Positions 279 through 32,000 of a stretch of DNA of 32,000 nucleotides are shown here, piece by piece; position 1 is the first letter of the stretch, and each line of letters starts with the position of its first letter. Made by a program: the position numbers and the translations under genes. Below the pieces are notes generated by a model. That model was not told the DNA's origin. It saw only the letters and a list, made by a program, of their open reading frames with translations, and searched no databases. Origin of the DNA: Candidatus Saccharimonadota bacterium (GTDB lineage: Bacteria > Patescibacteriota > Gracilibacteria > BD1-5 > UBA6164); the NCBI GenBank assembly GCA_004563595.2, contig CP042461.1:1110001-1142000 (forward strand), read 5' to 3'.

Positions 279-355
279 TTTCATATACAAGAAAAAACTT
301 TCACTTTTCATTGCTTTTCAATATAATAACTGCAATTAAAATTTTACAAATATAC

Positions 356-1558
356 ATGGCCCAAGTTGGAATCAGAGAATTTGATGCAAAAGCAATGTAC
401 TATGAATCTATATGAGAAAACTACGCTTGATATCAAATAAAAAAAACACTTGATATATCTCTCCTTTCCCCTGAAAAAAAGTATGTTATTAAACCTGATA
501 TGCTCTTTTGAAAAAGAGGAAAAAGAGGGCTTTTATGACTGAAACTTGATAAAAACTGAGTAAATAATTGGCTTCATAATAAATTACATTCAAAAGTAAA
601 TATAGACTGAGTTGATTGAGAATTAGATGTATTTTTAGCTGAAGAATTCTCCCCACTCACAAAAGAATATTATATATCTTTTTCTCAGGATCGAGACTGA
701 GACACTCTCACATTTTCTTCTGAATGAGGAATAGATATAGAAGAAAACTGGAATAAAACAACAAGTATTGTACTCTCTCCCCTTTCAAACCTTCACAAAA
801 CAGATCTAGAAAAAATTTGAATAGATGAAAGTTCCCTACAAAAAATTATTACGAAACTCTGGAACTTTTATAGAAATTATTGATTTGTATATTTAGAAAT
901 CAATCCACTATGAGTTGATAAAAATTGAAATTTTATAATCGTTGATATGGTTGCGAAAGTTGATAACTGTGAATTTTTTAGACAAAAAGATCATTGGAAA
1001 ACTCTAGAATTACCTCAAAGTTTTGGATATAAAGAAAATAAAAAAGAAAAATATATACGTGAACTTGATGCTCAAACATGAGCAAGTATGAAATTTAAAA
1101 TACTCAATAAAGATGCCGAAATTTGGACTCTCCTTGCTTGAGGATGAGGCTCCCTCGTCATTACTGATACTCTCTGAAGCTTATGATTTGCTGATGAAAT
1201 ATGAAACTACTGAGAACTCTCAGGAAATCCTGATAGAGAAAATACAAGAGAATATACCAGAGCCCTTATAGAACAAATGCTCGAAAATAATATCAAGTGA
1301 AAATATCTCATCATCGCATGAGCTATAGCAAATTTCACAAAAATTGATACTACCTTTGCTTGAATTATTGATATACTTGAAGAAAAAGCAGTAGAATTAC
1401 AAGAGCAAAAAATACAAATATTGGTAAGAAGAGGCTGACTCAATGATAAAAAATGATTAACTATTATAAAAGAGGCTTGTGATAGACTCTGACTTCCTAT
1501 AAAAATCGCAAATTCAGACATATATATGACAGATATATTAAAAGAAATTACATTATAA
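356..1558 (+). CDS. aclB: ATP-citrate lyase, ATP-grasp (beta) subunit
   Basis: 400 aa with TGA read as Gly. It is colinear with the N-terminal ~425 aa of ATP-citrate lyase: KPDMLFGKRGKRGLLGL, SSEGGIDIEENW, YLEINPL, EIWTLLAGGGGSLVITDTLGSLGFADEIGNYGELSGNP, IIAGAIANFT, VRRGG. By hand count there are 26 in-frame TGA codons, several at invariant Gly. Trp is encoded by TGG. Confidence 0.85.
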
Positions 1559-1569
1559 AATAAATATTC

Positions 1570-3360
1570 ATGTTTTCCAGAAACTCATTTGCAATAATAT
1601 ATTGATTACAAACTCAAGCAGCCCAAAAAATGCTTGATTTTGATTATCTGTGTGAAAGAGAAGCTTCAGTACTTGCTTTTATTAACGCAGGAAAACAAAA
1701 GATCAACCACAAACTCTTTTATTGAGACACTGAGATCTTAATACCTAGTTATCCAAATATAATTTCTCTTCCAGAACAAATCAAACAAAAAACTGACACT
1801 CTCGTAAATTTTGCATCTTTTAGAAGCGCAGCTCAGGCAACAAATGAAGCACTTGAAAGTAAAATATTCAAAAATGTTATTATCATCGCAGAATGAATTC
1901 CAGAAAGACAGACAATAGAGATCATAGAAAAAAATAAACAATACTGAGTCAATATTATTGGTCCTGCAACTGTTTGAGCCATGTCAGCATGAGAATTTAG
2001 AGTATGAAACACCTGAGGAAGTTTAGATAATATTGTCAGCTCTAAACTGTATCAAAAATGAAGTATATGACTTGTATCCAAGTCTGGTGGAATGAGTAAT
2101 GAAATGAGGAGAATAATCGCAGATAGAACAAATGGAACAAGTATATCTATTGCCCTTGGTTGAGATAAGTATAACATAATGACATTTACTGATGTCATGA
2201 AAAATTTTGAAGCAGACGATGAAGTAAAAATGATTGTTATGCTCTGAGAGATCTGATGAAGAGAAGAAAATAAAATAGCTGATATGATAACTGCCTGAGA
2301 AATCAAAAAACCAGTGGTTGCTTGGTGTATAGGAACCATTGGTGATACTCTCAAATGAGATGTACAATTCTGACATGCATGAGCAAAATCAAATGCAAAT
2401 GAAGAAACAGCCAATTATAAAAATAATAAACTAAAAAAGGCCTGAGCCCATGTTCCTGAAAGTTTTATAGATTTTTGAGATAAGATAGAAGAAGCATATC
2501 ACCAAGTTAATCCTGGTTTTCCTAAAGAAGAGGGGGCTAGGGGCTGAAGTTATAATATATCTGAAAAAATAAAAATCATGAACAATAGAAAATCTACTCA
2601 ATTTACATCCACTATTTCAGATGAAAGATGAGCAGAACTCACTTACAATAAAAGACCTATTTCTGAATATGCTCAAAAATGAAGTTTTGCAGATGTAATC
2701 TGAAACCTATGGTTAAAAAAAGATTTACCTGAATATGCACTTGATTTTATTAATACAACTTTGATACTTCTTGCTGATCACTGACCTGCCGTGTCAGGGG
2801 CTACAAACGCTATTATTACTGCAAGAGCAGGAAATGACTTAAAATCATCTCTGATCGCATGATTAACTACTATTTGACCGAAGTTTGGTTGAGCAATTGA
2901 TGGAGCTGCAAATTATTTTTCGCAAGCAGTACATGATAAAATTACTCCTGAAAAATTTGTTGAATCAATGAGAGAAGCCGAAATAAATATTCCTGGAATA
3001 TGACATAAAGTAAAGTCAAAGTTTAACCCAGATAAAAGGTGTGAAATACTCCTAAATCTGAGTAAAAAGTTCCCTCAAGCACAACATTTACAGTTTGCAC
3101 TTGAAGTAGAAAAACTCACTCTAGAAAAAAAATCAAACCTTATACTGAATGTAGATGGAATGGTTGCAGCAATGTTTCTAGATATATTTCAAGATATATG
3201 AATGGATTATGAAGAGATAAAAGAATATATTGATATCTGAATATTTAATGCCTTCTTTATCCTTGCAAGAACAACAGGTTTTATAGGACATATAATAGAT
3301 CAAAAGAGATCAAAAGAATGACTCTATAGAACACCTTGGGAAGATATCATGTATGATTAA
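1570..3360 (+). CDS. aclA: ATP-citrate lyase, alpha subunit (CoA-ligase plus citryl-CoA lyase domains)
   Basis: 596 aa, starting 11 nt after aclB. Motifs: IIAEGIPE, GPATVGAM, SKSGGMSNE, the catalytic-His motif VQFGHAGA, then the citrate-synthase-like part [49 protein letters not shown]. Many of the Gly residues in these motifs are TGA. Confidence 0.9.
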
Positions 3361-7393: not shown

Positions 7394-7436
7394 AAATCGA
7401 CTAAAATTCACTTAAAAGTGAGTTTTAGTCGATTTT
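7394..7436. terminator. Long hairpin terminator after the response-regulator gene
   Basis: AAATCGACTAAAATTCAC...GTGAGTTTTAGTCGATTT forms a stem of about 16 bp with one G-U pair. The regulator's TAA stop (7425-7427) sits inside the 3' arm. Confidence 0.55.
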
Positions 7437-8081
7437 ATATCAAAATCATTTGATAGTATGGATAAGCTCTTTTGATAATTTGTGTCTAATATTTGATATA
7501 TAAACATCTAATTTTCCATCAGAATCAAAGATAGAATCTCATCATCCCCATGCATATTCAATTATATCTGTTCTTGAAGTAGGTGTTCATCTATTTTTGA
7601 GAAGTAACTCTATTATTAAATATTCTTTTTGAGTAATAAGCACATCCTTTGAATCTTTTGTGAAGATTCTTTTTGACATATCTATCTCTATATTATTAAC
7701 AACAAGTACTGAATTATCATCATTTTTTCTCAATATTGTTTTTATACGGGCCTCTAATTCTCTCAGATCAAAAGGCTTCACAATATAATCAACTACTCAA
7801 TAATCAAATCAAATGAGTTTGTCATCTATTGAATCTTTTGCCGTTATTATAATAATAGGTATTTCATTTCCTCTTTCTTTTAATTTTCTAGCAATAGTAA
7901 AACCATCAATTTCAGGCAACATAACGTCAAGGAGGATAAGATCATATTTTTTACCCAATGCTGAATCTAATCCTGACTCACCATCAAAACACCTATCAAT
8001 CTCAAAATCTTCTAATTCTAAATACTGTTTTATACTATCTGATATTTCTCTGTTATCCTCAATCAGTAAAATCTTTGCCAT
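7425..8081 (-). CDS. OmpR/PhoB-family response regulator
   Basis: 218 aa. The receiver domain reads MAKILLIEDN...DLILLDVMLPEIDGF...IIIITAK. The winged-helix output domain reads ITQKEYLIIELLL...LDVYISNIRHKL...IKGFGYKID*, and its conserved C-terminal GxGY only appears when two TGA codons are read as Gly. Confidence 0.9.
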
Positions 8082-8094
8082 AAAATGCCTAACA

Positions 8095-9423
8095 TTAAAA
8101 TGTAATTGTAAACTGAGTCCCTTTTCATGTCTCGCTTTCTACTTTTATAGACCATTTATATAAATCAATAATTCTCTTTATAATAAATAATCAAACTCAA
8201 AATCATTCTCTTTTTGTATCTGCTCTATAAAACTTATTCCAAATATTTTTGAGGTCCTTTTGCTCAATTCAAATTCAATTATCTTTTACCCAAAATTTAC
8301 TCTCATCCAGTCATACCTCAATAATAGCCTCGTTTTGAGAGAATTTCACCGAATTTGTAAGCAGATTCTCTATTATAATGTTAAAGGTTACTTTATCAAT
8401 ACATTTTATAACTCCTGGTCTTATCTTATATTTTATAGTAATCTCTTTATCTATTAATCCTTTTATTATGCTATCAATAGTTGATTTTAAGAGTATTCAC
8501 AAATCCACCTCCTCCCTCTCAAATTCTTCAATTCATTCTGTTTTTCTTGACAGTAAAAAGAGTGTTTCTAAAAGGTTGTTCAATTTTTTTGTATTATGTT
8601 TAATTGATTCTAGTAATACTTCTACATCTTCTTTTGAACTTTTATTTTTCTCAAGCATTTTATAATACACATCAATTTTTGAATTTATTATCATAAGAGG
8701 AGTTTTAAACTCGTGACTTACATCTGTAATAAATTGACGTAAATTTTGTGTTTGAGATTGGATTTTTTCAAAAGATGAATTGATAGTATCAGCTAATATT
8801 TTTATTTCATCTCCTTGGCATCAATAACACTCAATTTTTTTGAAATTATCGATATTAATCCCCTGTGCTTCGTGAGAAATTTTCCTCAAATCTTTCAACA
8901 TATATTTCGAGAAAAGTTTTCAGGTAAAGTATGATAAAAATAAAAATATAAGAATAATTATAAAACTAATTTTAATAATGATAATTTGAGATTTGATATA
9001 TGGAGTTGTATCAAAAAGAACCTTTACTTCTCCTATCTCTTCATAATATTGAGAAAATATAAAATATATTTTTCCATCCTCTTTATAAAAATATGAATCT
9101 TTTATTTCATCGAGCTTTGCTATATCATTATGAAGCTTCTTTGATACTCCATTTGAACATATAAGTTCTCATTCGGGTGGAATAATTATAGTATCTTTTT
9201 GTAAAATATAACTTTTAAAAGCCTCAATATTATTTTTACTAAACGTTTTTGAATATGCATCATAATTTATATCCATATCATACAAACTTTCTTGTTTTTG
9301 GTCTTCATACCACAAGAAAAAGTATATTACATTGATTGATAAAAGTAATACAATAAGTGAAAGTAGGTTTACAAGAGCAAATGTAAACGAAATTTTGTCT
9401 GTTGTTTTAAATTTTTTAAACAT
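8095..9423 (-). CDS. Sensor histidine kinase (HisKA + HATPase_c)
   Basis: 442 aa. There is an N-terminal TM segment (FTFALVNLLSLIVLLLSINVIYFFLW), the H-box FITDVSHEFKTPL, and the C-terminus RIIDLYKWSIKVESETGKGTQFTITF*. Its stop is 13 nt upstream of the regulator ATG. No in-frame TAA/TAG by hand scan. Confidence 0.85.
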
Positions 9424-11898: not shown

Positions 11899-13329
11899 TT
11901 ATGCTGCTTCATCAATAAAAAACTCGCGCAATTTTTCTGTCTCTTTACCCCTCATTAATTGAAGATATCTTATATTTTCCTCTATTGTATATATGTCATC
12001 GTCATCCAAACCTCATTTTGATAGTTCTGATACCTTATAGTAAAGAACGTTCATAAAAGTATCAAAAAAATAATCTCATTTTTCTTCACTTTGAAGAAGT
12101 GCAGGAAAAAATTTATCTGAAAATACCTGGTTTGAAATTAATTCTATGATAGCAGGCTTCACAGCTTTTGGACTCAAGGATTTAAACAATGATAACACTC
12201 TATACGCTTCTCATTCGGGGTCCTTGTTCTCTTTGAGCATATCATTTGCAATGGTTAATAAGGATTCCCCATTTTTTGCATTCTCCTTTGAGCTTGTTGC
12301 GTATCAAAACACTAGTCATAATTTTATGTCTTTTCCTGTAAGGTCATTACGAAGGGATAATTCTTCCTCAGAAGATTTTTCGATCCTCTCTACAAAGTTT
12401 TTTATATGTTCGTCTCTATTGTCTTGTGTTGTTCAACCATTGTTAAAGAGTATAAAAAACTCATCTCATCATAATCTAATAACTCTATCATTTGCTCTGA
12501 CACAACTTTCTAAAAACCTCGCAACTTTTATAAGTGCTTTATCTCAAAAGAGTTGTCAATTTTCATCATTAATTTTTTTAAATGATGAAACATCTATAAA
12601 AATACCTGAATAATCATGCTTTTGCCTGTTTAGTATCTCATTAAAGTATGTAGAATTATACAATCATGTCATCCCATCAGAATACTTTTGTTTCATTTTA
12701 TTTGATTTTTCCTCTATAAGTTTTGAGATATTTTTTCCCTCTAATAAATTTTTTAATACTATTAGGTCATGTTTGTATAATATTTCATCATTTGTTTGTG
12801 ATTCAAAAGTCATAACAATATACTCTTCTCGACCTCATGGAAGTTCAAATTTTACTTGTATACACTCTTCTCAAGATTTGTACGTCTCTCAATCTCATAA
12901 AAATTGTACTCATTCTAAAATTGCATCACTCTTTTTTTTATCAAATTTTTCAATTCTTTCTGCAAACACATCTGAGCTTTCATCTTTTGAAATACATTCT
13001 ATAGCTCATTCTCATACAATATGCTGTACTGAAGAAAGTTGAATATTTTTTATTCTTGAATTCAAGCTTTCCCCTACTACTTTCATATACTCCTCAATTT
13101 CAATTGATCATAAATCATCTGGAGCGAATTCATCCGGGCTTACTCATAGGTCCCTTAATACTGCAGCTGATATTCAGTTTGAATCGCTCAGTTCCAAAAG
13201 TTCTTCTACTTTCATCTTCGAAAATTTGACCAACATTTTCAACTGTTCTTTTTTTTCTTCACGAGGAGTTCATTCTAAAGAGAGTTTTATAAGTGGTCTA
13301 TATTGCATTGAAGTGTTCTTTCAAGTCAT
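11899..13329 (-). CDS. GGDEF-domain diguanylate cyclase with an uncharacterised N-terminal region
   Basis: 476 aa. FIDVSSFKKINDENGQLFGDKALIKVARFLESCVRANDRVIRLGGDEFFILF. Both Gly of GGDEF are TGA TGA (12466-12471, minus strand). An RxxD I-site (RAND) sits 5 residues upstream of GGDEF. Confidence 0.85.
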
Positions 13330-20900: not shown

Positions 20901-22010
20901 CTAATACTCCAAATTTGGGTAATTTTTATTTACTTGTTTAAAATGTTCTATTTGTCTTTTTTTTGCACGTATTATGACCTCTGAACTAGGATTTAATTCT
21001 TTCATTAAAGTATCCATTCATAAAATCACATAATCTATTTCCTGAGATATTTCTTCTCATAACTTTGTTAGTTTTGCGTATTTTTTTATTACTTTTTGGA
21101 GAAATTTTGTTTTTATGTGATATAAAACTATTTTTTCTAACCACATCATATTCTCTCATAAATAGCCATTTTTATAAGCCTTCATAATAATATACATTGT
21201 TGGTGCAAAAGCGTGATATCCAAGAAATACTCCATAAATATGTCTCGCATCTGGTCTAATAGCAGAGTAATACTTTTCATCCTTATTATTGAGGATAATT
21301 GGATCAAATTGAAGTAATAGATTTAATTTATTATGCGATGATTCATGAATAATCGCTTCTAAATTATTGATTTCAGGGCAACTTGAATTAATGGTATATC
21401 CTAAATAAATATGACCAATACATTCATTATAACTTGCCGAGTTATGTATTGATTTCGCAGTTCCAAGTGGCACAATTTTCTGAATAATTTGATTGAGTTC
21501 ATCGTAAGTTCATTCATCTATTTGTTGCAATAATCTGAATGTTTTCTCGTAAACTCATAGCCATTCTTCTTCTCATCTTTCTCACCATCACAATATTCAT
21601 CAAGTTGTATGATGGTCAGGGTGTGCTTCAAAGATATTATAGGGATTATTATCTTTAGCCGTAAGCCTCACATTTGTTCATGAAATTTTTTGTCACTGAT
21701 TCATGCAAAGGTTTTTACTCCCAATTCACTCTTCTAAATATATATTTATTTCATTTTTTAATTTTTGTTGTTCTATAGCATAAAATTCCTCACTATCTAG
21801 ATCATTAATAATCAGAAAATTTATTATCCCAGATTGATCAGGGTTTAAGATAAAATCCCTATTTTCAACTATTAAGAGTTCCTCTATCTCTTCTGATAAG
21901 ATTCAGTTATTTCTTAACTTTTCTAAGTGAGAGATGAGCCTTTTATAGTATTTTTCCAAATATTCCTTTAATAAAGCTGAGTTTTTCTGTCAAAGTACGT
22001 AGTATTTCAT
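20901..22010 (-). CDS. HExxH-motif protein resembling aKG-HExxH-type peptide beta-hydroxylases (HEXXH motif domain, TIGR04267-like)
   Basis: 369 aa. MKYYVLGQKNSALLKEYL...IVPLGTAKSIHNSASYNECIGHIYLGY...LEAIIHESSHNKLNLLLQFDPI...YYSAIRPDARHIYGVFLGYHAF. ATG 22010 is the first ATG after TAG 22032-22034; TAG stop at 20901-20903. The assignment rests on the HExxH motif plus the downstream R-P-x-x-R/H-rich segment only. Confidence 0.65.
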
Positions 22011-22067
22011 TTTGATATTTGATGATAAAAACTATAATTGTGTATAATTATATCTTTCAATATTTTT

Positions 22068-23384
22068 ATGCAATATTTTTTGTACTTACTTACTATTCCC
22101 TTTTTATATTTTAACTTTAAAATTGTTCTTTCTGATCTTAAATTTAAGATCATTCCAAATAAATACTTAGCAAAAATACTCTATATGCTCCCTATATGGT
22201 ATGCGTATTTAATCCTATGATGAACAATTATAGTCTCAGATGTATGGTTCATTATCCTACAAATATTTCTATCTTTCATTATTTCATTTTGACTATATGC
22301 TTATGGTATATGGTCAGCTTGAGATGCAAAATACTTATTAGTATTATCGCTATTTATCCCTCATGTATGAACTCTTACATTTATATGAAACATTGCATTG
22401 TTAACTCTTACATATTTATTGTTATACTTTATTTACTTTTATATATGAAAATGTATACTTCAATCCACATATAGAAAAAGTTTATATTGAAATATTTTTA
22501 ATGACATTAAAGAAATATTTCAATATAAACTTCAGAATAAAACCTCAGAAAATTATAAACAAAAAATCATATATAAAATATCTTTATGAGTGATAAATTT
22601 TTTCGTTATTTTTATCATTTTTAGGCTCTTAAGAATTGCAACATTAAACTGGCTCTATAGTTCATGAACTGATTTTAGCATCATTTCAACAACTGTTTCT
22701 CAGCACAGCACCTTGGTAGTTTTACTTTTGATAATTATTGTATTATGAGCCTTCTATGTAACTAAGAAGATAATGTATTTTTTCAAAAGAATCTTACATG
22801 ACTTTTTTTGAACACAAAGTAAGTATCTCTATAATTGAGTCCTACTACTCAGTTTATCATGTTATATGCTATATGAATATGCATATCATCCCCTAGAAAT
22901 TACCCAGAGTATTACCCTTATTTTTACTGTTTATTTATCTATTTACCTATTTATTATCATACTCAAGTATGCCTCTAAGATTACTTTTCAATTATGAGAA
23001 GAAAAAAGTATTCAAGTAAGGTCCCTAAAGAAATGAGATATTATTGATAAAGTATATCTAAAAAATGTGATAAATAATGTAAATCACAAAAATAAAAAAA
23101 CGGTCGATAACTATAAAGAGGCTCTCAATATCATAAATAATTCCAGCTATCAACTCACCGTCGATGATGTAAAAAAAATACAATCTATTATTAAACAAAT
23201 AAATACAGATTGTAGTACTGATCGCATAATGGCATCTTGATTTCAGTCCATCAATAACATAAAAGTTATGAATACTTTTTCTTTTTGATGATATATCTGG
23301 TCTGGTTTTATGTTGAGTGTCTTCTTATGAAGTTATTTCTCAGAAAAAATAGTACTCTCCTTACAACACATGTTCAGAATATAA
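22068..23384 (+). CDS. A24-family (prepilin/preflagellin peptidase-like) membrane aspartic peptidase with a long C-terminal extension
   Basis: 438 aa. MQYFLYLLTIPFLYFNFKIVLSDLKFKIIPN supplies the first catalytic-Asp context. GLYAYGIWSAGDAKYLLVLSLF supplies the GxGD-type second Asp (the G preceding D is TGA). Several further hydrophobic segments and a ~110-aa soluble stretch follow (KKGDIIDKVYLKNV...). It is the only plus-strand gene in the right half. An alternative TTG start exists at 22038. Confidence 0.6.
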
Positions 23385-23406: not shown

Positions 23407-24135
23407 TTAACTTTTAGATGTAATATCTCGTGACTGTAGTATGTATATAGTCCCCCCTCTTACTGTGAATTCAATATCTTGTGCTTTGTCTAATATTCAT
23501 TCAATTTCCCTACATTTTTTATATAATAAATCACTAAAATTAATAAGAATATCTTCTTCAAAAAATAATGATTCAAATCTCGTACTTTGCTTCTTCTTCT
23601 CGCTTACTCATAGATAATTTTCTCCTCCATAAAAACTGTAAATTTTAAGTTTTGTTGTCTCTCTGTCAATTCCGAAACAAAATGGTTTTTTAATCTCTCA
23701 CTGTACTAGGGGTTCATTTATTCCTGGTATGATCTCAAAATAACACTCATTATTATGATGTTTTGTGAAACATACACCACTAAAATCTCCCACAATAAAT
23801 TCTTGTAAAATATATTTCTTTTCAAGCTTTCATATATCAAGGTTATGTAAATCTTTATAATGAGTATATTTTTCTGTTGTTTGTTCCTCACATATATTTA
23901 CCGCATATTTTAAATCTGCGTGAGTGTAAATTGGTGCATACGATTCAAATATTCATGCGAATGCATGACTACTACTATCTTCACATGAAAAAGAAGATCT
24001 AAGAATGAAAGGAGGGTCTAATTGAAGAGTAGAAATATCATGTATATCACTATATGTCTTACGTACAATAAAAGATGGAACATTAAAATTACTTTCCAGT
24101 AATAATTTCAGATTATCAGCTTTTGCTCAATGCAT
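23407..24135 (-). CDS. PEP/pyruvate-binding ATP-grasp domain protein (PPDK_N, PF01326-like), stand-alone
   Basis: 242 aa. MHGAKADNLKLL..NVPSFIV, FILRSSFSCEDSSSHAFAGIFESY, LQEFIVGDFSGVCFTKHH...IIPGINEPLVQGEIKKP, DIEFTVRGGTIYILQSRDIT. All four blocks of the PpsA/PPDK/rifampicin-phosphotransferase nucleotide-binding domain are present. Confidence 0.75.
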
Positions 24136-24140
24136 AAAAT

Positions 24141-25145
24141 TTATTTAATATTAATTTTCTTAGATACCGTATTAATTTCTAGAGTATCATCATTTTGACA
24201 AGAAAAAAATATACCTTCTGCTCCCAGCATTAAAGGAATTCATAACTCTCTACATGTAATTGCTGCATGGGATAATTCTGAACGAGTTTCAACACATATA
24301 CATTGTGCATTATAAAATGCCCTCAAAAATTCTGGATTTGTATTTTCTGCGACCATAATACTTCATTTATTTAAATCACTGGCAGATTCAACATTATAGA
24401 CTTTATGCACTTTTCATTCATAGCTATCTTGTTGTATTGAAATATTTATATCGTAACTTATACTCCTCCTCTGCGTTTTTTGAGAATCAAAATATTGTTC
24501 TATGCTAGAATATCACATGTTCAATATTTCTTGATAGAACTGAATTGCTCTTTTAAATTTAACAGCTTGAAAACGAAAAAAGTATTTTTCAAGTATGCTC
24601 TGGTATTTAAATGTTTTTTGCTGAAGATTTTTAACAATAGAAATATATTTAAGATATTCTGAAGTATAAAAATTATAATTCTCTTGAATATCACTTACAT
24701 CACAGTTAATCATATTAATAATTTCAGCTGATCAGAGCACATAATCATTATCACGTATTTTTTGAAATGAATATTCTTTTTCAAAATCAAGAGAAAGAGG
24801 TAATCATTCTACCATGATATGTTCATTTTTGAGCTCGTTATAGTGTTTTTGAGAACAAATAAATATATCAATTTCAAAACTTTTGTTCAATAATTTTTCA
24901 TACTGACATTGTAATAATCAATGTTTTTTAGATGGGTAAAATGCTCCTAAATCACATCAAATTGAAATAGGTATGTATATTTTAATAGATGATAAATCAA
25001 TATGTAATATATCAGTCAATCTCTTGCTGACCAATACTGGTAATAATCTATTATCTAATAAGATTCCCTGTCACTGAAAAAAATCATGCTGTAATAATGC
25101 AATAATTTCTTGTATTTGTTCTTTTAAACTAAGACTATGTTTCAT
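24141..25145 (-). CDS. PEP-utilising-enzyme mobile (swivel phospho-His) domain protein with an uncharacterised ~230-aa N-terminal domain
   Basis: 334 aa. The C-terminus reads KGSIMVAENTNPEFLRAFYNAQCICVETRSELSHAAITCRELGIPLMLGAEG, matching the PF00391 pattern G.ilV....P......a.aivt..G...SHaAI.aRElGIP. Its stop is 5 nt before the ATG of the ATG-grasp... of the ATP-grasp gene. Confidence 0.7.
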
Positions 25146-25147: not shown

Positions 25148-27046
25148 CTATTTTATAGGATTTAATTCACTATCTCAAAGTTTATCATAATAAGTAGTCC
25201 AAATTCATTCACACTTATCATACAGTTTACATCATTCACATTTTTTTGTTCTGACTCTTCATGTATTTTTTCTTCACTCTACAACATCATCGTTATAAAA
25301 ATCTGGTGCACTATGGGTCACATTTGTATATATATCAATCTCTTTTAATTCTGAAATATTATCTTCTAAGTAATCTTCAAAGTGGCATAAAGGAACATAT
25401 CTTACTCGATAGATCATACCATTTGCATTTCCCCAATCGAGAAGTTCTCTCATATGTGGTGAAGCTTCTGATATTTTTGGCATAAGTTCTTCAAAATTAT
25501 CATGAACCCCTCACACATTTGGATCAGCAAATATAAATTCAGAACTTCAAAAGCACTTAAGTTTTTTTACAAATTTTCAAATTCAAAGTACATTATCAAA
25601 ATTTCACTTCTCAATTGCTGTATTGGTACCAATGCTTTCATTTGGAAATCATAATTCTTGCCAGATTTGAATTCATTTTATGAGTTTATCAAACGCTCCT
25701 GGAACTGCTACTAACTTATCATGTAATTCTGCATTATCGGCATGAATCGAAAATACTACGCTATCAAGAATATCCATATCATAAAGTTTTTGAGAAAACT
25801 CACGGTCAGAAAATTTCAATCAGTTTGTTACCAAATATACATGACGAAAATGAAGAGATTTAATAAATTTCATGATCACAAAAAAATCTTTTCTGATAGT
25901 GACTTCTCATCATATAATCTCCAATATTTCAGTTCCATTTTGCTTTGCAATTAATATGTCTTTTAGGACTTCTTTCGTCGTTCTATTTATATTACGTTTA
26001 TTTAAATCTATACAGAACCTACACACAATATTACATCCATATCATACAAAAATAACCGTTTTTTTTCATGCAAAACTATCTTTTACATCTTCAATTGGTT
26101 TAAATCTAAAATTGTCAGTGTTTTCAATAATTTTTAATTTATCAATATCTTTTTTATAAAATGGCTGTATTTCTTCTTTTCAATTAAATTCACAATAGGT
26201 CTCGTGAATTCACATACAATACTTTGATAACTTACATGTACTACACTTCCCTGTAAAAGTGATTTCATGACTTGGAAGTGTTCTCCACATGTACTTCCAT
26301 AGTTTTTTTTCTTTTATGGTACACAGCGGAAAATGATACAATTTAAATTTATCTACTCAAAACTTTTCTCAATATTCCAAAAAAACCTTCTCATTTACTC
26401 ACATAACCTGAGTATAATTCATTTTTGTGAGTTTGATATTATCAATTGCTTGTCATTCAAACTCCATCATAATCGTAACAACACTATCAACCTGAGGAAA
26501 ATATTTATATATCAGTTCATACATTTTATCTAAAAACTTATAGTTTTGTCATTGAATAATAAGTCTTAATTCAAGAGTTTGATTATTAAATTTTTTATAT
26601 TTAAGGGCATTATGGATTCACTTCAATAGTTCTTCCCATGATCATTTTTTTCTCACAATTGCTTCGTGAGTTTCTTTGTTATAACCATGAATAGGAAATA
26701 CCAAATGATAATTTTCTAGGGTTGCTATTTGTTTCATAAAATCTATATTTGCAAACCTATCTCCATGCGTCAATTGTACCAGTGTTGATTGTGGAAATTT
26801 TTCTCTTATATATTGAAGTATTTTAAAATAATCTGGGTTCAAAGTTGGTTCACCTCATGTAATAGTCCAGTCATCTTTTAAATCAGGGAATCTATGAAAA
26901 TTTCTATCGTCACCTGATAAAAACCCATCAATTCTTGTTTTGATGGCCTCATAATGATAATCTTTTAATGTATATTTATAGTCAGCATCGTTTGAACACA
27001 TAGTACATTTGTGATCACAAGCTGGCCATAAGGCAATATCTGGCAT
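25148..27046 (-). CDS. Fused double radical SAM protein (two complete radical SAM modules in one 632-aa ORF)
   Basis: Module 1: WPACDHKCTMC (CX3CX2C, 26996-27019), ITGGEPTL, and the C-terminal Cys motif FPLC...GKCSTCKLSKYCMGIHETYC. Module 2: GYGCNIVCRFC (26012-26035), EIIGGEVT (GG is TGA TGA), YVPLCHF...KKCEGCKLYDKCEGIWTTYYDKLGDSELNPIK*. I hand-scanned every codion... every codon between the modules and found no TAA/TAG. The stop lies 2 nt before the next ATG. Confidence 0.75.
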
Positions 27047-27051: not shown

Positions 27052-27570
27052 TTAGGTTAATTCATTAATAAGCCATTTAAAGAGAGGAAAATGCTCTCAC
27101 TTAAATGTATATAATTCAGAACATTCATAAGTAAAGTAAAGAAAATAATCTACTATATTATCTGTTTCAATTACTCATTTTTGTCATTCTCATATTTTCT
27201 TTCCATTTGAAGTATCTATTATCTTATTCAGAAAAACTTCATTTTTTCAAAAATCAAAGTAATCCTTATATCACTTGATAAACTGAATATCTGTATCAAA
27301 ATGAGAAAAACTTATCTTATACATTTCTTTTCTAAATCGAAATGTATATCAATTATCGAATTGAACCTCTCAGAGAAGATAAAAATAATAAAAAAGTAGC
27401 TTTTTCACTTCTTGAACCTCATTAATGTTAAAATCATTACAAGCTAATGTAGATTTTAAATAGTATAAAAGTTCGAACTGTCATATATTTTCTGTCTTAT
27501 AGGGGTTTGTTAGTCAGATAACTTCCTTGTATTGCTGGTTATCAAACAGCCTTAATATTTTATCGTTCAT
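27052..27570 (-). CDS. Hypothetical protein (172 aa)
   Basis: MNDKILRLFDNQQYKEVIGLTNPYKTENIGQFELLYYLKSTLA...FKGEHFPLFKWLINELT*. ATG at 27570 lies one codon after an in-frame TAG. The stop is 5 nt before the double radical SAM ATG. No family recognised. Confidence 0.5.
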
Positions 27571-27647
27571 ATCCTATATTAGTATCATAATTTTTCATTC
27601 ATAGCAATTATATACAAATCTATATCATTCCCAAAAATAAAACTCAT

Positions 27648-28829
27648 TTATCTCACCTTTCACTCATCTATGTATAGCAAATAATTATAGCACAATTTCT
27701 CAATATTCATTAAGCCTTGGAATGCTTTACTTTCTCAAATATGATGCTCTCGATATAAAAAGGCTAAAGAAAACATAATCTCATCTGTTTCATCATTAAT
27801 ATATTTTCCATAATAGTTTAAAAAATCTTTCTTCGAGTTAGAAAAAAGAACATCTGACTTCAGATTACTTTCTAGAGAGAGGATTTGCATATTTTCATGA
27901 AAATTTAATTCAGAAAATTCATTGAAAAATTTTTGAACACTCTGTTTCAAGTATATGTAAAAATTTTCATAATCTCATAAAATGAGATTATTCTCTGCTA
28001 AAGTTTTATAAAATTTAAAATCATTTTTATTATTTATTTCTGCATCATGCAAAATTGTCATTAAAATATCTTGTGACTCATCATACTTTCATATCTTCTT
28101 TAAAGCTGCGGCTTTTCAAATAAATGGCTCAGGCTGACGATACTTATAATATGTTTCATTTAAAATAATAGATCCATTGAATAATGATATTGCTTTTTTT
28201 TGATCTCATAATGCAAGATAAATATATCCGAGCCGACTATATATAAAAGTAGGGATTTCAGAATGAGTATATCTTTTTTCAAGAATTTTTACGGCCTTAA
28301 TACAATACTTTTTCGCTGCACTCAGATACTTCTTATCTTTGTGCATTCTATATAATCGAGTTCCTAAAAAACGGGAGTATGCACAAAGCACATAAGGATT
28401 ATCAGTGTTGCATTCTAATAATTGTCTAAAAATTTCATTCATCTCTCGGCTTCATTTATTGTCATAGTATCGTACATACGCAGCGAGTGCATAGAAATTA
28501 TATTTATTTTCTTTCAATAATTCATCAACATTCTCTCATTGCTTCTGAGACATAAAGCATGGGTCAAGAATAGACTCATTTAAAAATAAAAAAATGTACC
28601 TCTTATCATATCAAAGAATAGACTCTCTACATTCACTAAAACCAATATCTAAATCCTGACGAGTATCTATATTCTTAAAATAAAAATATGGTCGTTGAAA
28701 CTTTTCTCTGCCTTTTAAATATCCCTTATATCAATGGTAATAAGCAAAATAATCTAAAAAAACCTCAAAGTCTTCTTTGTTCTTGAATTCTACCATACGC
28801 TCATATATATTATCAATAAATACACTCAT
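27648..28829 (-). CDS. TPR-like repeat protein
   Basis: 393 aa. TPR-like helical repeats, for example NPYVLCAYSRFLG, IYSRLGYIYLALGDQKKAISLFNGSI, FIGKAAALKKIGKYDESQDILMTIL. The first ATG at 28829 overlaps the upstream radical SAM ORF by 20 nt; an alternative ATG is at 28796. TAA stop at 27648-27650. Confidence 0.6.
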
Positions 28830-29679
28830 AGCAGCTTGAAAATAAGTCTCTTTTAGAATTAATTTCTTCTAATCTATTATAATAACGATCAAAATCTTTC
28901 TTTATTTTTTCATCGCTATCATACACATTTAACATATTTCTATTTTTTGATAAATAACATATATTCGTATGCATTGTTAAATCTCAATTTAACATAATAT
29001 TTATCTCATTCTCATCGTGAGTAAATGTCCCCAACTCATCTTTATATTTCATAAAGTAATAATACTTACAATTATCAGTTCATAACCTTGTAGAAACGAA
29101 TTTTTTACTATCATGAATGGGATATGGGTGTTTTCAAAATACTAAGTCTACGTTTTTAAACTTTTGTCATAGATAATATAAAAATTTAAATTCTGAGTTC
29201 TCAATGCTATATCTCACACTAAAAGGAGAAAAATAATTATGAGTATTGAGAAAATGGAATACTTTTACCCAATCTTTTTTATACTTTGTTACATTCATTT
29301 CATTTATATTTGAAACAAATGTATACTCAATGTTATAGATATTTTTTATTTCAACTAAATTTTCAAGGTACTCTTTATTATATGGGACAAGTCAAGATAC
29401 TTGAATAATAATCTTTAAATTTGGCTGAAATGAATGTACATACGTAATAAGATCAATAATATGCTTATTTGCAAACATATTACTTCAAAAAAAGGTAAAT
29501 CACTGTAAATAATCTCAGTCTACAATCAAAAAGGTTTTTCTAATTGACTCCTTGAGTTGAAGAATTTCTTCATCAGAATAAATACTCATTTCCATGACTC
29601 ATTCTTTACATGTATCACACCTCGTTATACATCCATGTCATAACTTAGTTATTAATTTTGGAACTTGGATTTTTAACAT
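28810..29679 (-). CDS. Small radical SAM protein, paralogue A (289 aa)
   Basis: MLKIQVPKLITKLGHGCITRCDTC (CX3CX2C). C-terminal Cys residues: TDNCKYY, LNGDLTMHTNICYL, SSCYECIYG*. The architecture is shared with the next two ORFs. Confidence 0.7.
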
Positions 29680-30613
29680 TATTATAATGGTTTACAAAGT
29701 ATGACTGGCAAAAATTACAAATATTTCAATCCTTTCATTTATTTTTATAATCATTCGACATAGACTCTAATGATTTTTTTAACACTATCGAATTCTCTAT
29801 TAAATCACTCTTTTTACTTTTAATATTTCATATTGAAAGTTCTTTGATTGATGAACAATATGGTCAATGTGGCATTATTTGATTTTCTGAAAAATCAAAC
29901 ATAAGAATATCTAGGTCCTTGCTCTTATCTGATATATAGTTCTTGGAAAGAAAAGAGCACTCCTTTTCTCATGAATATGAAAATAGCTCTGTTGAAAGGT
30001 CAATGTAACTTATAACTTTTGTTCATTCGCCTTCGGTAAAATACAATTTAGTGCCACTATCTAATAGTCATCTTAAAACATTTAAAGTTTTGTTTTTATC
30101 TACTCTATTCGAAGAAGAGTTTATTTCTCTATGTAAAATGAGTTTAGATTCTATATTTTTCCTTTTTAATAAATGTAATTTTGCAGGAATATCGTCAGTC
30201 AAAATATCCTCATTTAACCTTACAGATATTCAAAGTTTTATGGAAAAAAAAGGTTGAAAAATATCTATAAATTCTTTCACATCTGCATCGAAAATACCGT
30301 TTATATTTTTTATTTTTGTATATACCAATAGCTCATCTTTTCGCTTTAAAATCTTAAGTTTCATCAAAGTATAAATATATTTTTTAATGAAAGCTATGTT
30401 CGTTACAAAGTCTCAACACTGATTTAATGAAAGTGAATTATATGTAAGGTTATTTTTTTTTGCAAAATAAGAAAATTTCACCAAAAATTTGAGGTCTATT
30501 TTGCTTAATATTTCCTCGTTTCTGTTTGAGCTTATACAACTATAACATCATCTCGAACAATTATAATTATTAGGTATCGGATTCAAAACGAATCAATCAA
30601 TATTTATTTTCAT
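29645..30613 (-). CDS. Small radical SAM protein, paralogue B (322 aa)
   Basis: MKINIDGFVLNPIPNNYNCSRGCYSC (CX3CX2C; the G inside the motif is TGA). C-terminal Cys residues: ENQIMPHGPYCSS, GNICNFCQSY. The 3' end overlaps paralogue A by 35 nt in a different frame. Confidence 0.7.
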
Positions 30614-30621
30614 ATGTATGA

Positions 30622-31491
30622 TTATTGATAACTATACTTCCCTTTAATTATACATTTATAACAATTATGTTCAAATGTTTTTTCTTCATTATTCACGCTA
30701 TTAAGATATGATTTAAAGCTATTAAAATCAAATATTCTTTTCTCATTATCAAAAAATATATTTGATATTTTTAAGTCTGCCAAATAACACCTCGGAATAT
30801 GTGGTCTAATATCTCAATTTATAGATATTTCTAGGTCATAATATCAATCAAAGTCTTCAAAAATAATATCATTATTTTTGACTAAGAATGAGTTATGATA
30901 TTTGCAAAGTACATCTTCACTTGTTACAATTTCGTTATCATTATCAATCTGTAGTGCCTCAGAAATACTTAATTTCAATTGTTTATACCTTGTTAATAAT
31001 CGAAAATTTTTACTTTCTATTAACTCTATTTTTTTCTTATAATATATTTGAAATGAAATATTATCAATATAATCCTCCAAAAAAAATTCTAATAGCCTTA
31101 CCAATGATTTAAAATTATAAGTATTCAGGTTACTAATTGAAGTAGAAACATAAACTTGTATATTATATTTTTGTAATAAATATGCTAATATTTTATAAGT
31201 TCAAGGTTTATAGATATTTATATCTGAAATTTGAATTGCAATTCATCATTTTGGATCGAATTGATGTATATACAACATCAGCTCATCTATATCGCCGTAC
31301 AGTAATGGATCAACTCAAAAACAAAATATCTCACAGTCATTATTAAAGACTTGAAAAGTAGTTGCAATATTTTTCTTTAATTCAGACATGTCATAATACG
31401 TCTGAGAGGTATAATTATCACTACATCAAGTACATCAAGTATTACAACCTTTTCAAAGTCTGAAAAGGAGCCTTTTTGCTCCATATATCAT
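30622..31491 (-). CDS. Small radical SAM protein, paralogue C (289 aa)
   Basis: MIYGAKRLLFRLGKGCNTGCTGC (CX3CX2C with two TGA Gly inside the motif), CFGVDPLLYGDIDEL (GGEP-like), INGDIRPHIPRCYL, HNCYKCIIKG. ATG at 31491 lies one codon after the upstream gene's TAA. Confidence 0.7.
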
Positions 31492-31494: not shown

Positions 31495-32000
31495 TTATAT
31501 ATTTATTAAATCACTCTGCCCATATGCAGAAATATACTCGTCAAATATTCCATAACAATCATCTTTAAAATCACACTTTCCACATTCTGGTAAATATGAT
31601 CTTCTTCCATAATCAGTATTATAGAGCTTATTCTCATATACCTCAGTTATATAATTTATCTTTTCAGTCTTCAGGTCAGCCCTTTTTTCTAAATCTCATA
31701 AAAATAAACATAGAGGGAATCAATCCCAGTATATTTTAATACCTTTTCCGTCAAACATTTCTATTGCTGATTTTATATTAAGAGAGGCTTCTTTCGGTGA
31801 ACAGAATAATGCATCATTATTTCAAGCACCAGAGGGTTCTAAAAGAGAAAACTTAATACTTAAGTTTTCATACGAAGTCTTTAAAAGACCATTCAAAGTG
31901 TCCTCTATGGAAGATAAATTATCAGAAATAACCACATAATTTAAAAATAATGAATCAAAACTTCTTTTTTTCAAAGAACCTATGATCTTTATGACTCATT
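31495..32000 (-). CDS. C-terminal part of a further radical SAM protein (5' end lies outside the window)
   Basis: ...IKIYWDGFPLCLFLGDLEK...RSYLPECGKCDFKDDCYGIFDEYISAYGQSDLINI*. The tail closely parallels module 2 of the double radical SAM protein (YVPLCHF...KKCEGCKLYDKCEGIWTTYYDKLGDSEL). The CX3CX2C motif itself is not in the window. Confidence 0.55.

What the first reader, a model, noticed from the sequence alone, without database searches (positions are those of the whole stretch)
25148..27046. Two complete radical SAM modules fused in a single 632-aa ORF
Each half has its own CX3CX2C motif (ACDHKCTMC at 26996-27019; GCNIVCRFC at 26012-26035), its own GGE SAM-binding motif (ITGGEPTL; IIGGEVT) and its own C-terminal P-L-C...C-x2-C-x5-C-x-G tail. 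The standard-code track breaks this gene into three short same-frame pieces. I checked every codon of the linker (FYKKDIDKLKIIENTDNFRFKPIEDVKDSFAGKKTVIFVGYG) and found only TGA, never TAA or TAG. The two halves look like diverged duplicates. The off-window gene at 31495-32000 carries the same tail, so this module type occurs at least three times.
Basis: seen in the sequence. Interest (0 to 1): 0.7.

Follow-up and report, generated by a model that had tools for sequence, protein, structure and literature searches.

The report
Fused double HxsC-type radical SAM enzyme
In a Gracilibacteria genome that reads TGA as glycine, one real 632-aa gene joins two different HxsC-type radical SAM enzymes that are separate neighbouring genes in relatives, and it sits in an enlarged version of the His-Xaa-Ser (HXS) protein-maturation system recently shown to block phage DNA entry in E. 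coli.

Summary
Window 25148-27046 (-) is one 632-aa gene with 27 in-frame TGA codons and no TAA or TAG. TGA encodes Gly here (code 25). The identical protein is in GenBank as "radical SAM protein" of Candidatus Gracilibacteria bacterium 28_42_T64. About 30 full-length relatives (60-78% identity) rule out a chimeric join.

Both halves are Pfam Radical_SAM domains. Each keeps its CX3CX2C motif, GGE motif and four-Cys C-terminal site across 28 relatives.

The halves are not a recent internal duplication. They are two old paralogous lineages: the N half is closest to HxsC and the C half to HxsC4. Three other genomes encode them as separate neighbouring genes, including a close relative at 54-61% identity.

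The same organism's scaffold shows, just past the window edge and on the same strand, HxsD, HxsB and a 123-aa protein ending in six His-Gly-Ser repeats. The gene therefore belongs to an expanded HXS-type maturation cluster.

Two- to four-module fusions of this enzyme type are common in metagenomes. I rate it a new variant of a known kind. The chemistry and biological role are inferred, not shown.

The parts
25148..27046 (-). Fused double radical SAM gene: 632 aa, 27 TGA=Gly codons, TAG stop at 25148-25150
   Evidence: It is identical to the GenBank 'radical SAM protein' of Ca. Gracilibacteria bacterium 28_42_T64, and about 30 full-length homologs exist.
26162..27046 (-). N module (aa 1-295), HxsC-type: CX3CX2C at 26996-27019, GGE at 26849-26857, four-Cys tail C242/C268/C271/C277 at 26216-26323
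   Evidence: Pfam Radical_SAM E 8e-13. NCBIfam HxsC TIGR03977 scores 144 bits, the best family but below the cutoff of 267.9. All Cys are invariant in 28 homologs. Stand-alone orthologs are L015 10001-10954 (61%) and L001 11058-12020 (31%).
26066..26161 (-). Junction (aa 296-327). It corresponds to the C-terminal tail of the stand-alone N-type gene (conserved N-F-R-F-x-P-I) joined to the start of the C-type gene.
   Evidence: The L015 N-type gene ends ...NFRFHPIQSLV-TAG and its C-type gene starts MLIKKSVIFTGYACN. N312/F313/P317/I318 are invariant. The AF2 model predicts beta strands here.
25148..26065 (-). C module (aa 328-632), HxsC4-type: CX3CX2C at 26012-26035, GGE at 25904-25912, four-Cys tail C554/C603/C606/C612 at 25211-25387
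   Evidence: Pfam Radical_SAM E 7e-16. NCBIfam HxsC4 NF038332 scores 96 bits and HxsC 81 bits, both below cutoff. Stand-alone orthologs are P0033/L001 10001-11065 (45%), L003 (41%) and L015 8583-9509 (54%).
27052..27570 (-). p172: a 172-aa partner protein. Its stop lies 5 nt before the start of the double gene. Function unknown.
   Evidence: It lies close to the double gene (or between its split halves) in every Gracilibacteria locus examined: directly adjacent in most, one gene away in L010 and L017, about 6.8 kb away in L011. It has no Pfam, NCBIfam or PADLOC hit. It is not HxsD (hhalign probability 0.09%). The AF2 model has pLDDT 90.6 and no PDB fold match.
27648..28829 (-). TPR-repeat protein (393 aa) in the same operon-like run
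   Evidence: Pfam TPR families, all below their gathering scores. Homologs at the same position in L011, L012 and L017 (35-38%).
28810..31491 (-). Three small proteins each with an N-terminal CX3CX2C and a C-terminal CxxC (28810-29679, 29645-30613, 30622-31491). They are divergent radical SAM-like proteins.
   Evidence: Only weak Radical_SAM or Fer4_12 hits, or none. The first and third are paralogs (25% identity, E 6e-18).
31495..32000 (-). C-terminal 167 aa of a third HxsC-like radical SAM gene. It is 298 aa in full and runs off the window.
   Evidence: HxsC hit on the fragment. The full-length gene is L019 5180-6076, with Radical_SAM E 1.6e-20 and HxsC 88.5 bits.
23407..25145 (-). Two genes immediately downstream, starting 2 nt after the double gene's stop: a PEP-utilizers mobile-domain protein (24141-25145) and a PPDK_N ATP-grasp protein (23407-24135). 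Together they form a split PEP-synthase/Rph-like phosphotransfer enzyme.
   Evidence: The same pair occurs in L017.
20901..23384 (.). Flanking genes conserved beside the cluster: an aKG-HExxH-type peptide beta-hydroxylase domain protein (20901-22010, -) and a polytopic membrane protein with a weak Peptidase_A24 match (22038-23384, +)
   Evidence: TIGR04267 scores 56.6 bits against a cutoff of 40. Peptidase_A24 E 0.003. Homologs flank the cluster in L005, L006, L011, L012, L017 and L018.

Best explanation
The ORF is a real, expressed-as-one protein of a code-25 (TGA=Gly) Gracilibacteria genome.

Origin. It arose by fusion of two distinct, anciently diverged radical SAM maturase genes of the HxsC family. 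One is an 'N-type' closest to canonical HxsC. The other is a 'C-type' closest to HxsC4.

Cofactors. Each module keeps everything needed to be catalytic on its own: a CX3CX2C site for the SAM-cleaving [4Fe-4S] cluster, the GGE SAM-binding motif, and a four-Cys C-terminal site for a second cluster. The protein should therefore carry four Fe-S clusters and two active sites.

Genomic setting. It is part of a same-strand gene run of about 15.6 kb that forms an expanded His-Xaa-Ser (HXS) system, in this order:
- HxsD, HxsD-like, HxsB;
- a 123-aa HxsA-like protein ending in (His-Gly-Ser)x6-HCSW;
- a membrane protein;
- a single-module HxsC-like enzyme;
- three small divergent radical SAM-like proteins;
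- a TPR protein;
- the invariant 172-aa partner;
- the fused double enzyme;
- a split PEP-utilising phosphotransfer enzyme.
An HExxH hydroxylase and an A24-like membrane protease flank the run.

Inferred mechanism. Each module reductively cleaves SAM to a 5'-deoxyadenosyl radical and abstracts hydrogen from residues of the His-Gly-Ser repeat region of the HxsA-like protein. This would install two different, or iterated, covalent modifications on one bound substrate. The 172-aa protein probably acts as adaptor.

Inferred role. By analogy with E. coli HXS, the matured product is exported to the envelope, and its role may be anti-phage.

Shown: gene integrity, code, domain identity, ligand conservation, fusion origin, cluster membership. 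Inferred: cluster occupancy, substrate, chemistry, biological role.
For: Code and integrity.

The fusion is real: the identical GenBank protein plus about 30 full-length homologs on independent contigs, and 10 named Gracilibacteria/Patescibacteria MAG loci.

Both modules are intact:
- Pfam Radical_SAM above the gathering score for each half.
- C10/14/17, C242/268/271/277, C338/342/345 and C554/603/612 invariant and C606 at least 90% conserved in 28 sequences; E66 and E381 invariant.
- The two modules are similarly conserved, 76% and 71%.
- The AF2 model (mean pLDDT 82.6) gives radical SAM partial-barrel matches: SuiB, BlsE, viperin, SkfB, MoaA.

Family: the best NCBIfam models are HxsC for the N half and HxsC4 for the C half. 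The stand-alone orthologs show the same split, 171 bits to HxsC and 124 bits to HxsC4.

Fusion of separate genes: split adjacent forms occur in L015 (C-type, p172, N-type), L001 and L003 (C-type then N-type).

HXS membership of the cluster in the same genome: L019 is identical to the window over 14,949 bp. It carries HxsD at 64.6 bits (cutoff 50), HxsB at 479 bits (cutoff 370), and the HGS-repeat protein. HGS-repeat genes also accompany the double gene in L005, L006, L007, L008 and L018.

Functional analogy: in E. coli, HxsB and HxsC mature HxsA, HxsC binds HxsD, and HxsC has a second C-terminal Fe-S site whose mutation reduces processing (PMC13128918).
Against: - Neither half reaches the curated HxsC or HxsC4 cutoffs: 144 and 81 bits against 267.9, and 96 against 500. 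They are HxsC-like, not HxsC equivalogs.
- The HxsA-like protein is below the HxsA3 and HxsA4 cutoffs and has no detectable peptidoglycan-binding domain.
- Four related loci (L011, L012, L015, L017) have the double or split enzyme and p172 but no HxS-repeat gene within 10 kb. p172 is the only universal partner, so the true substrate could be something else.
- No biochemical data exist for this subfamily.
- The relative orientation of the two modules in the model is uncertain (pTM 0.60).
- An anti-phage role in an uncultivated episymbiont is pure analogy. PADLOC gives no specific hit.
Confidence: 0.7

Rival explanations
1. Artefact: the ORF is not one gene. Either TGA terminates translation and yields fragments, or an assembly chimera joined two genes.
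For: Under the standard code the frame is broken by 27 TGA codons.
Against: TGA is the main Gly codon across the window and aligns to conserved Gly in GDH and in standard-code homologs of this very gene. The source paper used code 25 (PMC6851277). About 30 independent contigs carry the same 630-637-aa architecture. An independent assembly of the same organism is identical over 14.9 kb.
Confidence: 0.01
2. Recent internal tandem duplication: one radical SAM gene doubled in place and the copies diverged. One copy may be drifting toward a non-catalytic scaffold role.
For: The halves are homologous along their whole length (25% identity over 267 aa, E 5e-14) and share the same motif layout.
Against: Each half is far closer to separate stand-alone genes in other genomes (61% and 54% in L015, 31% and 45% in L001) than to its sister half. 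The two types match different NCBIfam models. All ligand Cys and both GGE motifs are conserved, and both halves are under similar constraint.
Confidence: 0.07
3. The double enzyme and p172 form a portable two-gene unit that acts on a substrate other than the His-Gly-Ser protein. That substrate could be another peptide of these variable RiPP-like clusters, or p172 itself. Linkage to Hxs genes would then be cluster co-habitation.
For: p172 lies close to the enzyme in all loci. HxS-repeat genes are absent within 10 kb in L011, L012, L015 and L017. Cluster content differs greatly between sister genomes. p172 has an invariant C-terminal LFKW-I motif.
Against: p172 is a confidently folded globular protein (pLDDT 90.6), unlike typical precursor peptides. 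Both modules' nearest families are HxsC types. The source genome and the closest relative L018 have HxsB and the HGS protein in the same run, and in L007 an HGS gene directly precedes p172 and the double gene.
Confidence: 0.17
4. Small-molecule or cofactor biosynthesis in the manner of FbiC (a CofG+CofH fusion): two radical SAM modules catalysing consecutive steps on a metabolite. The PEP-utilising pair would supply phosphorylation.
For: FbiC is the textbook case in which two separate radical SAM enzymes are fused in some lineages (PMC11917521). A PEP-synthase/Rph-like pair lies immediately downstream. The structural neighbours include BlsE, MoaA and viperin.
Against: No CofG or CofH model appears among the 25 best of the 35 NCBIfam families that matched. 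The best families and the genomic context are protein or peptide maturation: HxsB, HxsD, an HxS-repeat protein and an HExxH peptide hydroxylase.
Confidence: 0.05

Closest known systems
HxsC of the E. coli HXS anti-phage system (NCBIfam TIGR03977; Li et al., Nat Commun 2026, PMC13128918)
   Same: It is the best-scoring family for the N module and second best for the C module. Both have a CX3CX2C site plus a second C-terminal Cys site. The E. coli HxsC C342/C345 site affects processing. Both are encoded with HxsB, HxsD and a His-Xaa-Ser repeat protein.
   Different: - Scores are well below the equivalog cutoff.
- Two modules are fused here, and a third HxsC-like gene lies in the same cluster, against one HxsC in E. 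coli.
- The host is a code-25 CPR bacterium, whereas 99.7% of known HXS systems are in Pseudomonadota.
- Gene order is D-Drel-B-A-... instead of D-B-C-A.
- The repeat protein is short (123 aa), has uniform HGS repeats and no detectable peptidoglycan-binding domain.
- The cluster holds many extra genes.
HxsC4 (NCBIfam NF038332, 'rare' variant-system radical SAM) and the HxsA3/HxsA4/HxsD-like variant models
   Same: The C module and its stand-alone orthologs score best against HxsC4. The 123-aa repeat protein hits HxsA3 and HxsA4, and the 64-aa protein hits HxsD_rel. NCBI curators have therefore already recognised variant Hxs systems.
   Different: All of these hits are below the curated cutoffs: 96 against 500, 37.7 against 65, 33.7 against 55, and 38.8 against 41. 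HxsC4 is a 335-position single-module model. I found no description of a fused form.
FbiC (FO synthase): a CofG+CofH fusion with two radical SAM domains
   Same: Two radical SAM enzymes that are separate polypeptides in some lineages are fused in others and use two 5'-deoxyadenosyl radicals on one pathway (PMC11917521). This is the same evolutionary logic as the split and fused forms seen here.
   Different: The subfamilies are unrelated and FbiC acts on a small molecule. FbiC's domains are not close paralogs with matching auxiliary-cluster tails. This is an analogy only.
Peptide-modifying radical SAM maturases with auxiliary clusters (SuiB 5v1q, SkfB 6efn, CteB 5why, PqqE 6c8v)
   Same: They are the closest solved folds to the model (Foldseek E 1e-9 to 1e-6). 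They share the partial TIM barrel plus a C-terminal Cys-ligated cluster domain.
   Different: Identity is only 14-20% and each template covers one module. No Pfam SPASM hit was found. The tail here is a shorter four-Cys motif. No solved structure has two radical SAM barrels in one chain.

Membership tests
Radical SAM superfamily (PF04055) | CX3CX2C motif ligating the SAM-binding [4Fe-4S] cluster | tested here: met
   C10/C14/C17 and C338/C342/C345 are present and invariant in 28 homologs.
Radical SAM superfamily (PF04055) | Profile score above Pfam's gathering score, for each half on its own | tested here: met
   N half 49.3 bits and C half 59.3 bits, against a gathering score of 29.5.
Radical SAM superfamily (PF04055) | GGE SAM-binding motif and partial TIM-barrel fold | tested here: met
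   T-G-G-E66-P and I-G-G-E381-V are present, with the Glu invariant. The AF2 model matches radical SAM structures at Foldseek probability 1.00.
Radical SAM superfamily (PF04055) | Reductive SAM cleavage and Fe-S cluster content | not testable with these tools
   This needs purified protein.
HxsC, His-Xaa-Ser system maturase (TIGR03977 equivalog) | Score at or above the curated cutoff (267.9 bits) | tested here: not met
   Whole protein 215.1 bits, N half 144.4, C half 80.9, edge gene 88.5. HxsC is the best family for the N half only.
HxsC, His-Xaa-Ser system maturase (TIGR03977 equivalog) | Encoded in a cluster with HxsB, HxsD and a His-Xaa-Ser repeat protein | tested here: met
   On the same genome and strand (L019): HxsB at 479 bits (cutoff 370), HxsD at 64.6 (cutoff 50), and a 123-aa protein with six HGS repeats.
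HxsC, His-Xaa-Ser system maturase (TIGR03977 equivalog) | Second, C-terminal Cys-ligated Fe-S site | tested here: met
   C-x2-C-x5-C plus an upstream PLC Cys in each half, conserved. The HMM alignment runs to the end of the HxsC profile (positions 34-290 of 292). The E. coli counterpart is C342/C345.
HxsC, His-Xaa-Ser system maturase (TIGR03977 equivalog) | Physical complex with HxsD and modification of the HxS motif | not testable with these tools
   Known only for E. coli.
HxsC4 (NF038332) | Score at or above the curated cutoff (500 bits) | tested here: not met
   C half 96.1 bits, whole protein 141.4. HxsC4 is the best family for the C half.
HXS anti-phage system as defined by Li et al. 2026 | [quoted passage not shown] | tested here: inconclusive
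   HxsB and HxsD pass their cutoffs. The repeat protein is present but below the HxsA3/A4 cutoffs and has no Pfam domain. The order is D-Drel-B-A-...-C-like modules, with many extra genes.
HXS anti-phage system as defined by Li et al. 2026 | Protection against phage by blocking DNA entry | not testable with these tools
   The host is uncultivated. PADLOC 2023 has no specific model hit.
SPASM/twitch radical SAM subgroup (PF13186; NF033640) | SPASM-domain profile match or a seven-Cys motif | tested here: not met
   No PF13186 hit at E up to 0.1. N_Twi_rSAM scores 38.6 bits against a cutoff of 170. The tail has four Cys only.
FbiC / CofG-CofH two-domain FO synthase | Profile match to CofG and CofH modules | tested here: not met
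   Not among the 25 best of the 35 NCBIfam families that matched. The resemblance is architectural only.

The most novel reading that the evidence does not exclude
HxsC-type radical SAM modules behave as combinable units. They are strung into polypeptides of two, three and four modules, in N-C, C-N and C-C orders, up to about 1,400 aa with four CX3CX2C sites. These would act as assembly-line maturases that pass one repeat-bearing protein substrate from active site to active site. In code-25 CPR bacteria, this machinery, together with a fold-novel 172-aa adaptor, would build a heavily cross-linked His-Gly-Ser envelope protein that serves as an HXS-type barrier against phage DNA entry. That would be the first such defence in the candidate phyla radiation.
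Probability: 0.25. Interest if true: 0.65.

Novelty: new variant of a known kind. Interest (0 to 1): 0.45.

Why it matters
Single polypeptides with two complete radical SAM active sites are rare among characterised enzymes. FbiC is the usual example. Here the fusion joins two paralogous protein-maturase modules, and split forms exist for comparison in close relatives. That makes a natural experiment on why radical SAM partners fuse, for example substrate hand-off or obligate pairing.

It also extends the HXS system, reported in 2026 as an anti-phage barrier found almost only in Pseudomonadota, to recoded, host-dependent CPR bacteria. The CPR version is much enlarged, with up to seven radical SAM-type modules acting around one His-Gly-Ser repeat protein.

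Two practical points follow:
- Public databases hold many members of this family translated with Trp at TGA, which corrupts the GGE motif.
- About a third of the closest family representatives are multi-module proteins. This pool of enzymes appears largely undescribed.

Tried and rejected
1. p172 as a cryptic HxsD. Profile-profile comparison gave probability 0.09% and there was no Pfam hit even at E up to 10. Rejected.
2. A His-Xaa-Ser repeat ORF inside the window. A six-frame code-25 scan found only one spurious HLSHLS match, at 27645-27662. The real gene is about 1.4 kb beyond the edge.
3. Fetching the source contig through the exact target protein. It is not on record. An exact 40-nt search of JGI metagenomes found nothing. 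The GTDB scan did not return the source genome. The region was finally reached through the code-4 translation of p172 (P0190).
4. PADLOC defence models. Only a generic viperin-type radical SAM hit.
5. Fold search of the double enzyme. Only generic single-module radical SAM templates, and no two-barrel template.
6. Fold search of p172. No significant match, best E 5.1.
7. SPASM domain as the identity of the Cys tail. No PF13186 hit.
8. tRNA scan for a UGA-reading tRNA-Gly. No tRNA gene in the window.
9. BLAST homologs of the three small CX3CX2C proteins in sister loci. None found.
10. Literature search for tandem, dual or double radical SAM. It returned only FbiC and unrelated uses, and nothing on fused HxsC. 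The source-genome paper never mentions radical SAM.
Full report
**1. The observation**

Window 25148-27046 on the minus strand reads as 633 codons from ATG to TAG. It has 27 in-frame TGA codons and no TAA or TAG.

TGA is a sense codon across the whole window:
- The window has 7 ORFs of at least 100 aa under the standard code and 49 when TGA is read through.
- In the 26 main genes TGA makes up 4.3% of codons, and all 26 stops are TAA (22) or TAG (4).

The meaning of TGA is Gly, not Trp:
- In the window's glutamate dehydrogenase, 12 of 18 TGA positions align to Gly in PDB 1euz and none to Trp. These include the GGGKGG and GxGNxG motifs.
- In the target gene itself, 17 of 24 alignable TGA positions are Gly and none Trp in homologs from genomes that use the standard code.
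- Trp is encoded by TGG, for example in the sigma-70 'ATWWIRQ' motif.

CX3CX2C lies at 26996-27019 and 26012-26035. The GGE motifs and the two PLC...C-x2-C-x5-C-x-G tails are present. The 'three same-frame pieces' are the three standard-code ORFs of at least 60 aa in this frame.

**2. It is a real single gene**

The identical 632-aa protein is in GenBank as 'radical SAM protein [Candidatus Gracilibacteria bacterium 28_42_T64]', on a 1.34-Mb contig. This is the closed genome of Sieber et al. 2019, who used code 25 and report 28.87% G+C. They do not discuss radical SAM genes (PMC6851277).

About 30 relatives of 630-637 aa at 60-78% identity lie on independent contigs. Ten named Gracilibacteria, 'Peribacteria' or Patescibacteria MAG loci were recovered from GTDB genomes. 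An independent assembly of the same organism (L019) is identical to the window over 14,949 bp. A chimeric join is therefore excluded.

**3. Both halves look functional**

- Pfam Radical_SAM hits each half separately, at E 8e-13 and 7e-16, both above the gathering score.
- In an alignment of 28 full-length relatives, C10/14/17, C242/268/271/277, C338/342/345 and C554/603/612 are invariant and C606 is at least 90% conserved. The Glu of each GGE motif is also invariant.
- Mean identity is 76% for the N module, 71% for the C module and 62% for the junction.
- An AlphaFold2 model (mean pLDDT 82.6, pTM 0.60) matches only single-module radical SAM structures: SuiB, BlsE, GDGT-MAS, viperin, SkfB and MoaA. 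No solved structure has two such barrels in one chain.

**4. What the halves are**

NCBIfam places the N half closest to HxsC (TIGR03977, 144 bits). It places the C half closest to HxsC4 (NF038332, 96 bits), with HxsC second at 81 bits. All of these scores are below the curated cutoffs. The halves are 25% identical to each other (E 5e-14).

Each half has much closer stand-alone relatives:
- In L015, a Patescibacteria MAG, there is a 308-aa C-type gene (54% identity to aa 328-631), then a p172 homolog, then a 317-aa N-type gene (61% identity to aa 1-321). The N-type gene ends '...NFRFHPIQSLV' followed by TAG, which falls inside what is the linker in the fusion.
- In L001 (55% GC, standard code) and L003 (40% GC), a C-type gene is immediately followed by an N-type gene. 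These orthologs show the same HxsC4 and HxsC preference.

The protein is therefore a fusion of two long-separate paralogous genes from one operon, not an in-gene duplication. The fused order, N then C, differs from the split order, C then N.

**5. Fusion is a family habit**

An exhaustive search of 1.84 billion representatives found 7,998 relatives. I classified 159 proteins: the 148 new representatives plus P0031-P0041. Of these, 47 have two or more HxsC-like modules:
- N-C order: P0044, P0092.
- C-N order: P0057, P0075, P0080.
- C-C order: many.
- Triples: P0061, P0067, P0069, P0072.
- Four CX3CX2C motifs: P0062 (1,318 aa) and P0113 (1,406 aa).

I found no literature describing this. The only 'two radical SAM domains' precedent retrieved was FbiC, the fusion of CofG and CofH.

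**6. The system**

The window holds only part of the cluster. L019 extends it by 5.6 kb. Upstream, on the same strand and tightly spaced, lie:
- HxsD (189 aa; 64.6 bits against a cutoff of 50);
- an HxsD-like 64-aa protein (38.8 bits against 41);
- HxsB (482 aa; 479 bits against 370);
- a 123-aa protein ending 'SGHGSHGSHGSHGSHGSHGSHCSW' (weak HxsA3 and HxsA4 hits, no Pfam domain);
- a 324-aa protein with an N-terminal hydrophobic segment;
- the full 298-aa HxsC-like gene whose tail is window 31495-32000.

Inside the window follow:
- three small divergent CX3CX2C proteins;
- a TPR protein;
- p172;
- the double enzyme;
- a split PEP-utilising enzyme (PEP-utilizers mobile domain plus PPDK_N).

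Flanking these are an A24-like membrane protein and an aKG-HExxH-type hydroxylase domain protein.

HGS-repeat genes also accompany the double gene in L005/L016, L006, L007, L008 and L018. In L007 one directly precedes p172 and the double gene. L018 is the closest relative, at 84% identity. L011, L012, L015 and L017 have none within 10 kb. Cluster content varies a good deal between sister genomes.

**7. The known reference**

Li et al. (Nat Commun 2026, PMC13128918) showed that E. coli HxsD-HxsB-HxsC-HxsA is an anti-phage system. Their findings:
- HxsB and HxsC, both with two Fe-S sites, mature HxsA by N-terminal processing and a +8 Da change on an SHRSS motif.
- HxsC binds HxsD.
- The product acts in the periplasm against phage DNA entry.
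- 99.7% of such systems are in Pseudomonadota.

The cluster here shares HxsB, HxsD, an HxS-repeat protein and HxsC-type enzymes. It differs in host phylum, genetic code, gene order, number of radical SAM modules (up to seven), the short domain-less repeat protein, and the fused enzyme.

**8. The partner p172**

It lies close to the enzyme in every locus examined: directly adjacent in most, one gene away in L010 and L017, about 6.8 kb away in L011, and between the split halves in L015. It has no family hit and is not HxsD. It is predicted with high confidence (pLDDT 90.6, pTM 0.88) to be a compact alpha/beta protein with no PDB fold match. The model was built from a Trp-for-Gly translation, which is a caveat. 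I read p172 as an accessory or adaptor protein and not a precursor, but that is inference.

**9. Mechanism and confidence**

Shown:
- one gene, read in code 25;
- two intact radical SAM modules with auxiliary-cluster motifs;
- origin by gene fusion;
- membership of an Hxs-type cluster.

Inferred:
- four [4Fe-4S] clusters;
- two 5'-deoxyadenosyl-radical-driven modifications on the HGS-repeat protein;
- p172 as adaptor;
- export of the product and a possible anti-phage role.

The main rival, at about 0.17, is that the enzyme and p172 form a portable unit acting on another substrate. The artefact, internal-duplication and cofactor-pathway readings are unlikely.

**10. Verdict**

The finding is real and correctly read. 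It is a new variant of a known kind (the HxsC-type maturase and the HXS system), not a new category. It is of moderate interest, raised somewhat by the unreported abundance of multi-module relatives and by the presence of the system in CPR bacteria.

Noticed in passing
whole window (1-32000): TGA is the dominant glycine codon: 429 TGA against 262 GGN in the 26 main genes, about 62% of Gly codons. Several public database entries for this protein family are translated with Trp at TGA (for example P0018 and P0030 read 'ITWWEPT'), which corrupts the GGE SAM-binding motif.
   Followed up: yes
window 27052-27570 (-): The 172-aa protein lies close to the double enzyme in every related locus and has an invariant C-terminal L-F-K-W-x-I motif. 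It is predicted confidently (pLDDT 90.6) as a compact alpha/beta fold with no significant PDB match and no family hit.
   Followed up: partly
window 28810-31491 (-): Three consecutive small proteins (289, 322 and 289 aa) have an N-terminal CX3CX2C and a C-terminal CxxC but no clear GGE motif, and only weak radical SAM hits or none. The first and third are paralogs (25% identity, E 6e-18). BLAST found no homologs in the sister loci. Adjacent genes overlap by 20 and 35 nt.
   Followed up: partly
window 23407-25145 (-); L005 4164-5666; L017 16997-18752: A PEP-synthase/rifampicin-phosphotransferase-like enzyme is split into two genes, with the mobile His-domain protein first and the ATP-grasp PPDK_N protein second. 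L017 has the same split pair. L005 has one 500-aa protein with the domains in the opposite order.
   Followed up: partly
window 22038-23384 (+): A polytopic membrane protein on the opposite strand has a weak Peptidase_A24 (prepilin peptidase) match and an 'AGDAKY' motif. It is conserved beside the cluster in L005, L006, L011, L012, L017 and L018. It is a candidate leader protease, given that E. coli HxsA is N-terminally processed.
   Followed up: partly
window 20901-22010 (-): A 369-aa protein passes the NCBIfam cutoff for the aKG-HExxH-type peptide beta-hydroxylase domain (56.6 bits against 40). It is conserved next to the cluster in L006, L012, L015 and L018.
   Followed up: partly
proteins P0061, P0062, P0067, P0069, P0072, P0113 (representative search): Metagenomic relatives with three or four HxsC-like modules in one chain, 920-1,406 aa, with up to four CX3CX2C motifs. 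Their organisms and contexts were not examined.
   Followed up: partly
L019 3829-4200 (would be window 33371-33742, off the edge): The HxsA-like protein has a basic N-terminus, one hydrophobic segment, and a C-terminus of (HGS)x6 followed by HCSW. Relatives end in Cys-rich tails (HCSSMC, HCNGCCCCSNW) or in RW.
   Followed up: partly
L017 8542-9766 and 13313-15661; L011 and L012: In sister genomes the cluster is interrupted by PemK-type toxin genes and AAA_14/DUF4143 genes (L017). L011 and L012 contain ORFs of 403-409 aa beginning 'K..DTHR..P.ET', which from memory resembles YcaO enzymes. That resemblance was not tested.
   Followed up: no
window 311-3360 (+), 7425-9423 (-), 11899-13329 (-): The rest of the window looks ordinary: ATP-citrate-lyase-type subunits (Citrate_bind, Citrate_synt, Ligase_CoA), a response regulator and histidine kinase pair, a GGDEF protein, thymidylate kinase, DnaG and sigma-70. 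The citrate lyase genes fit the citrate/malate-centred metabolism described for this organism.
   Followed up: no
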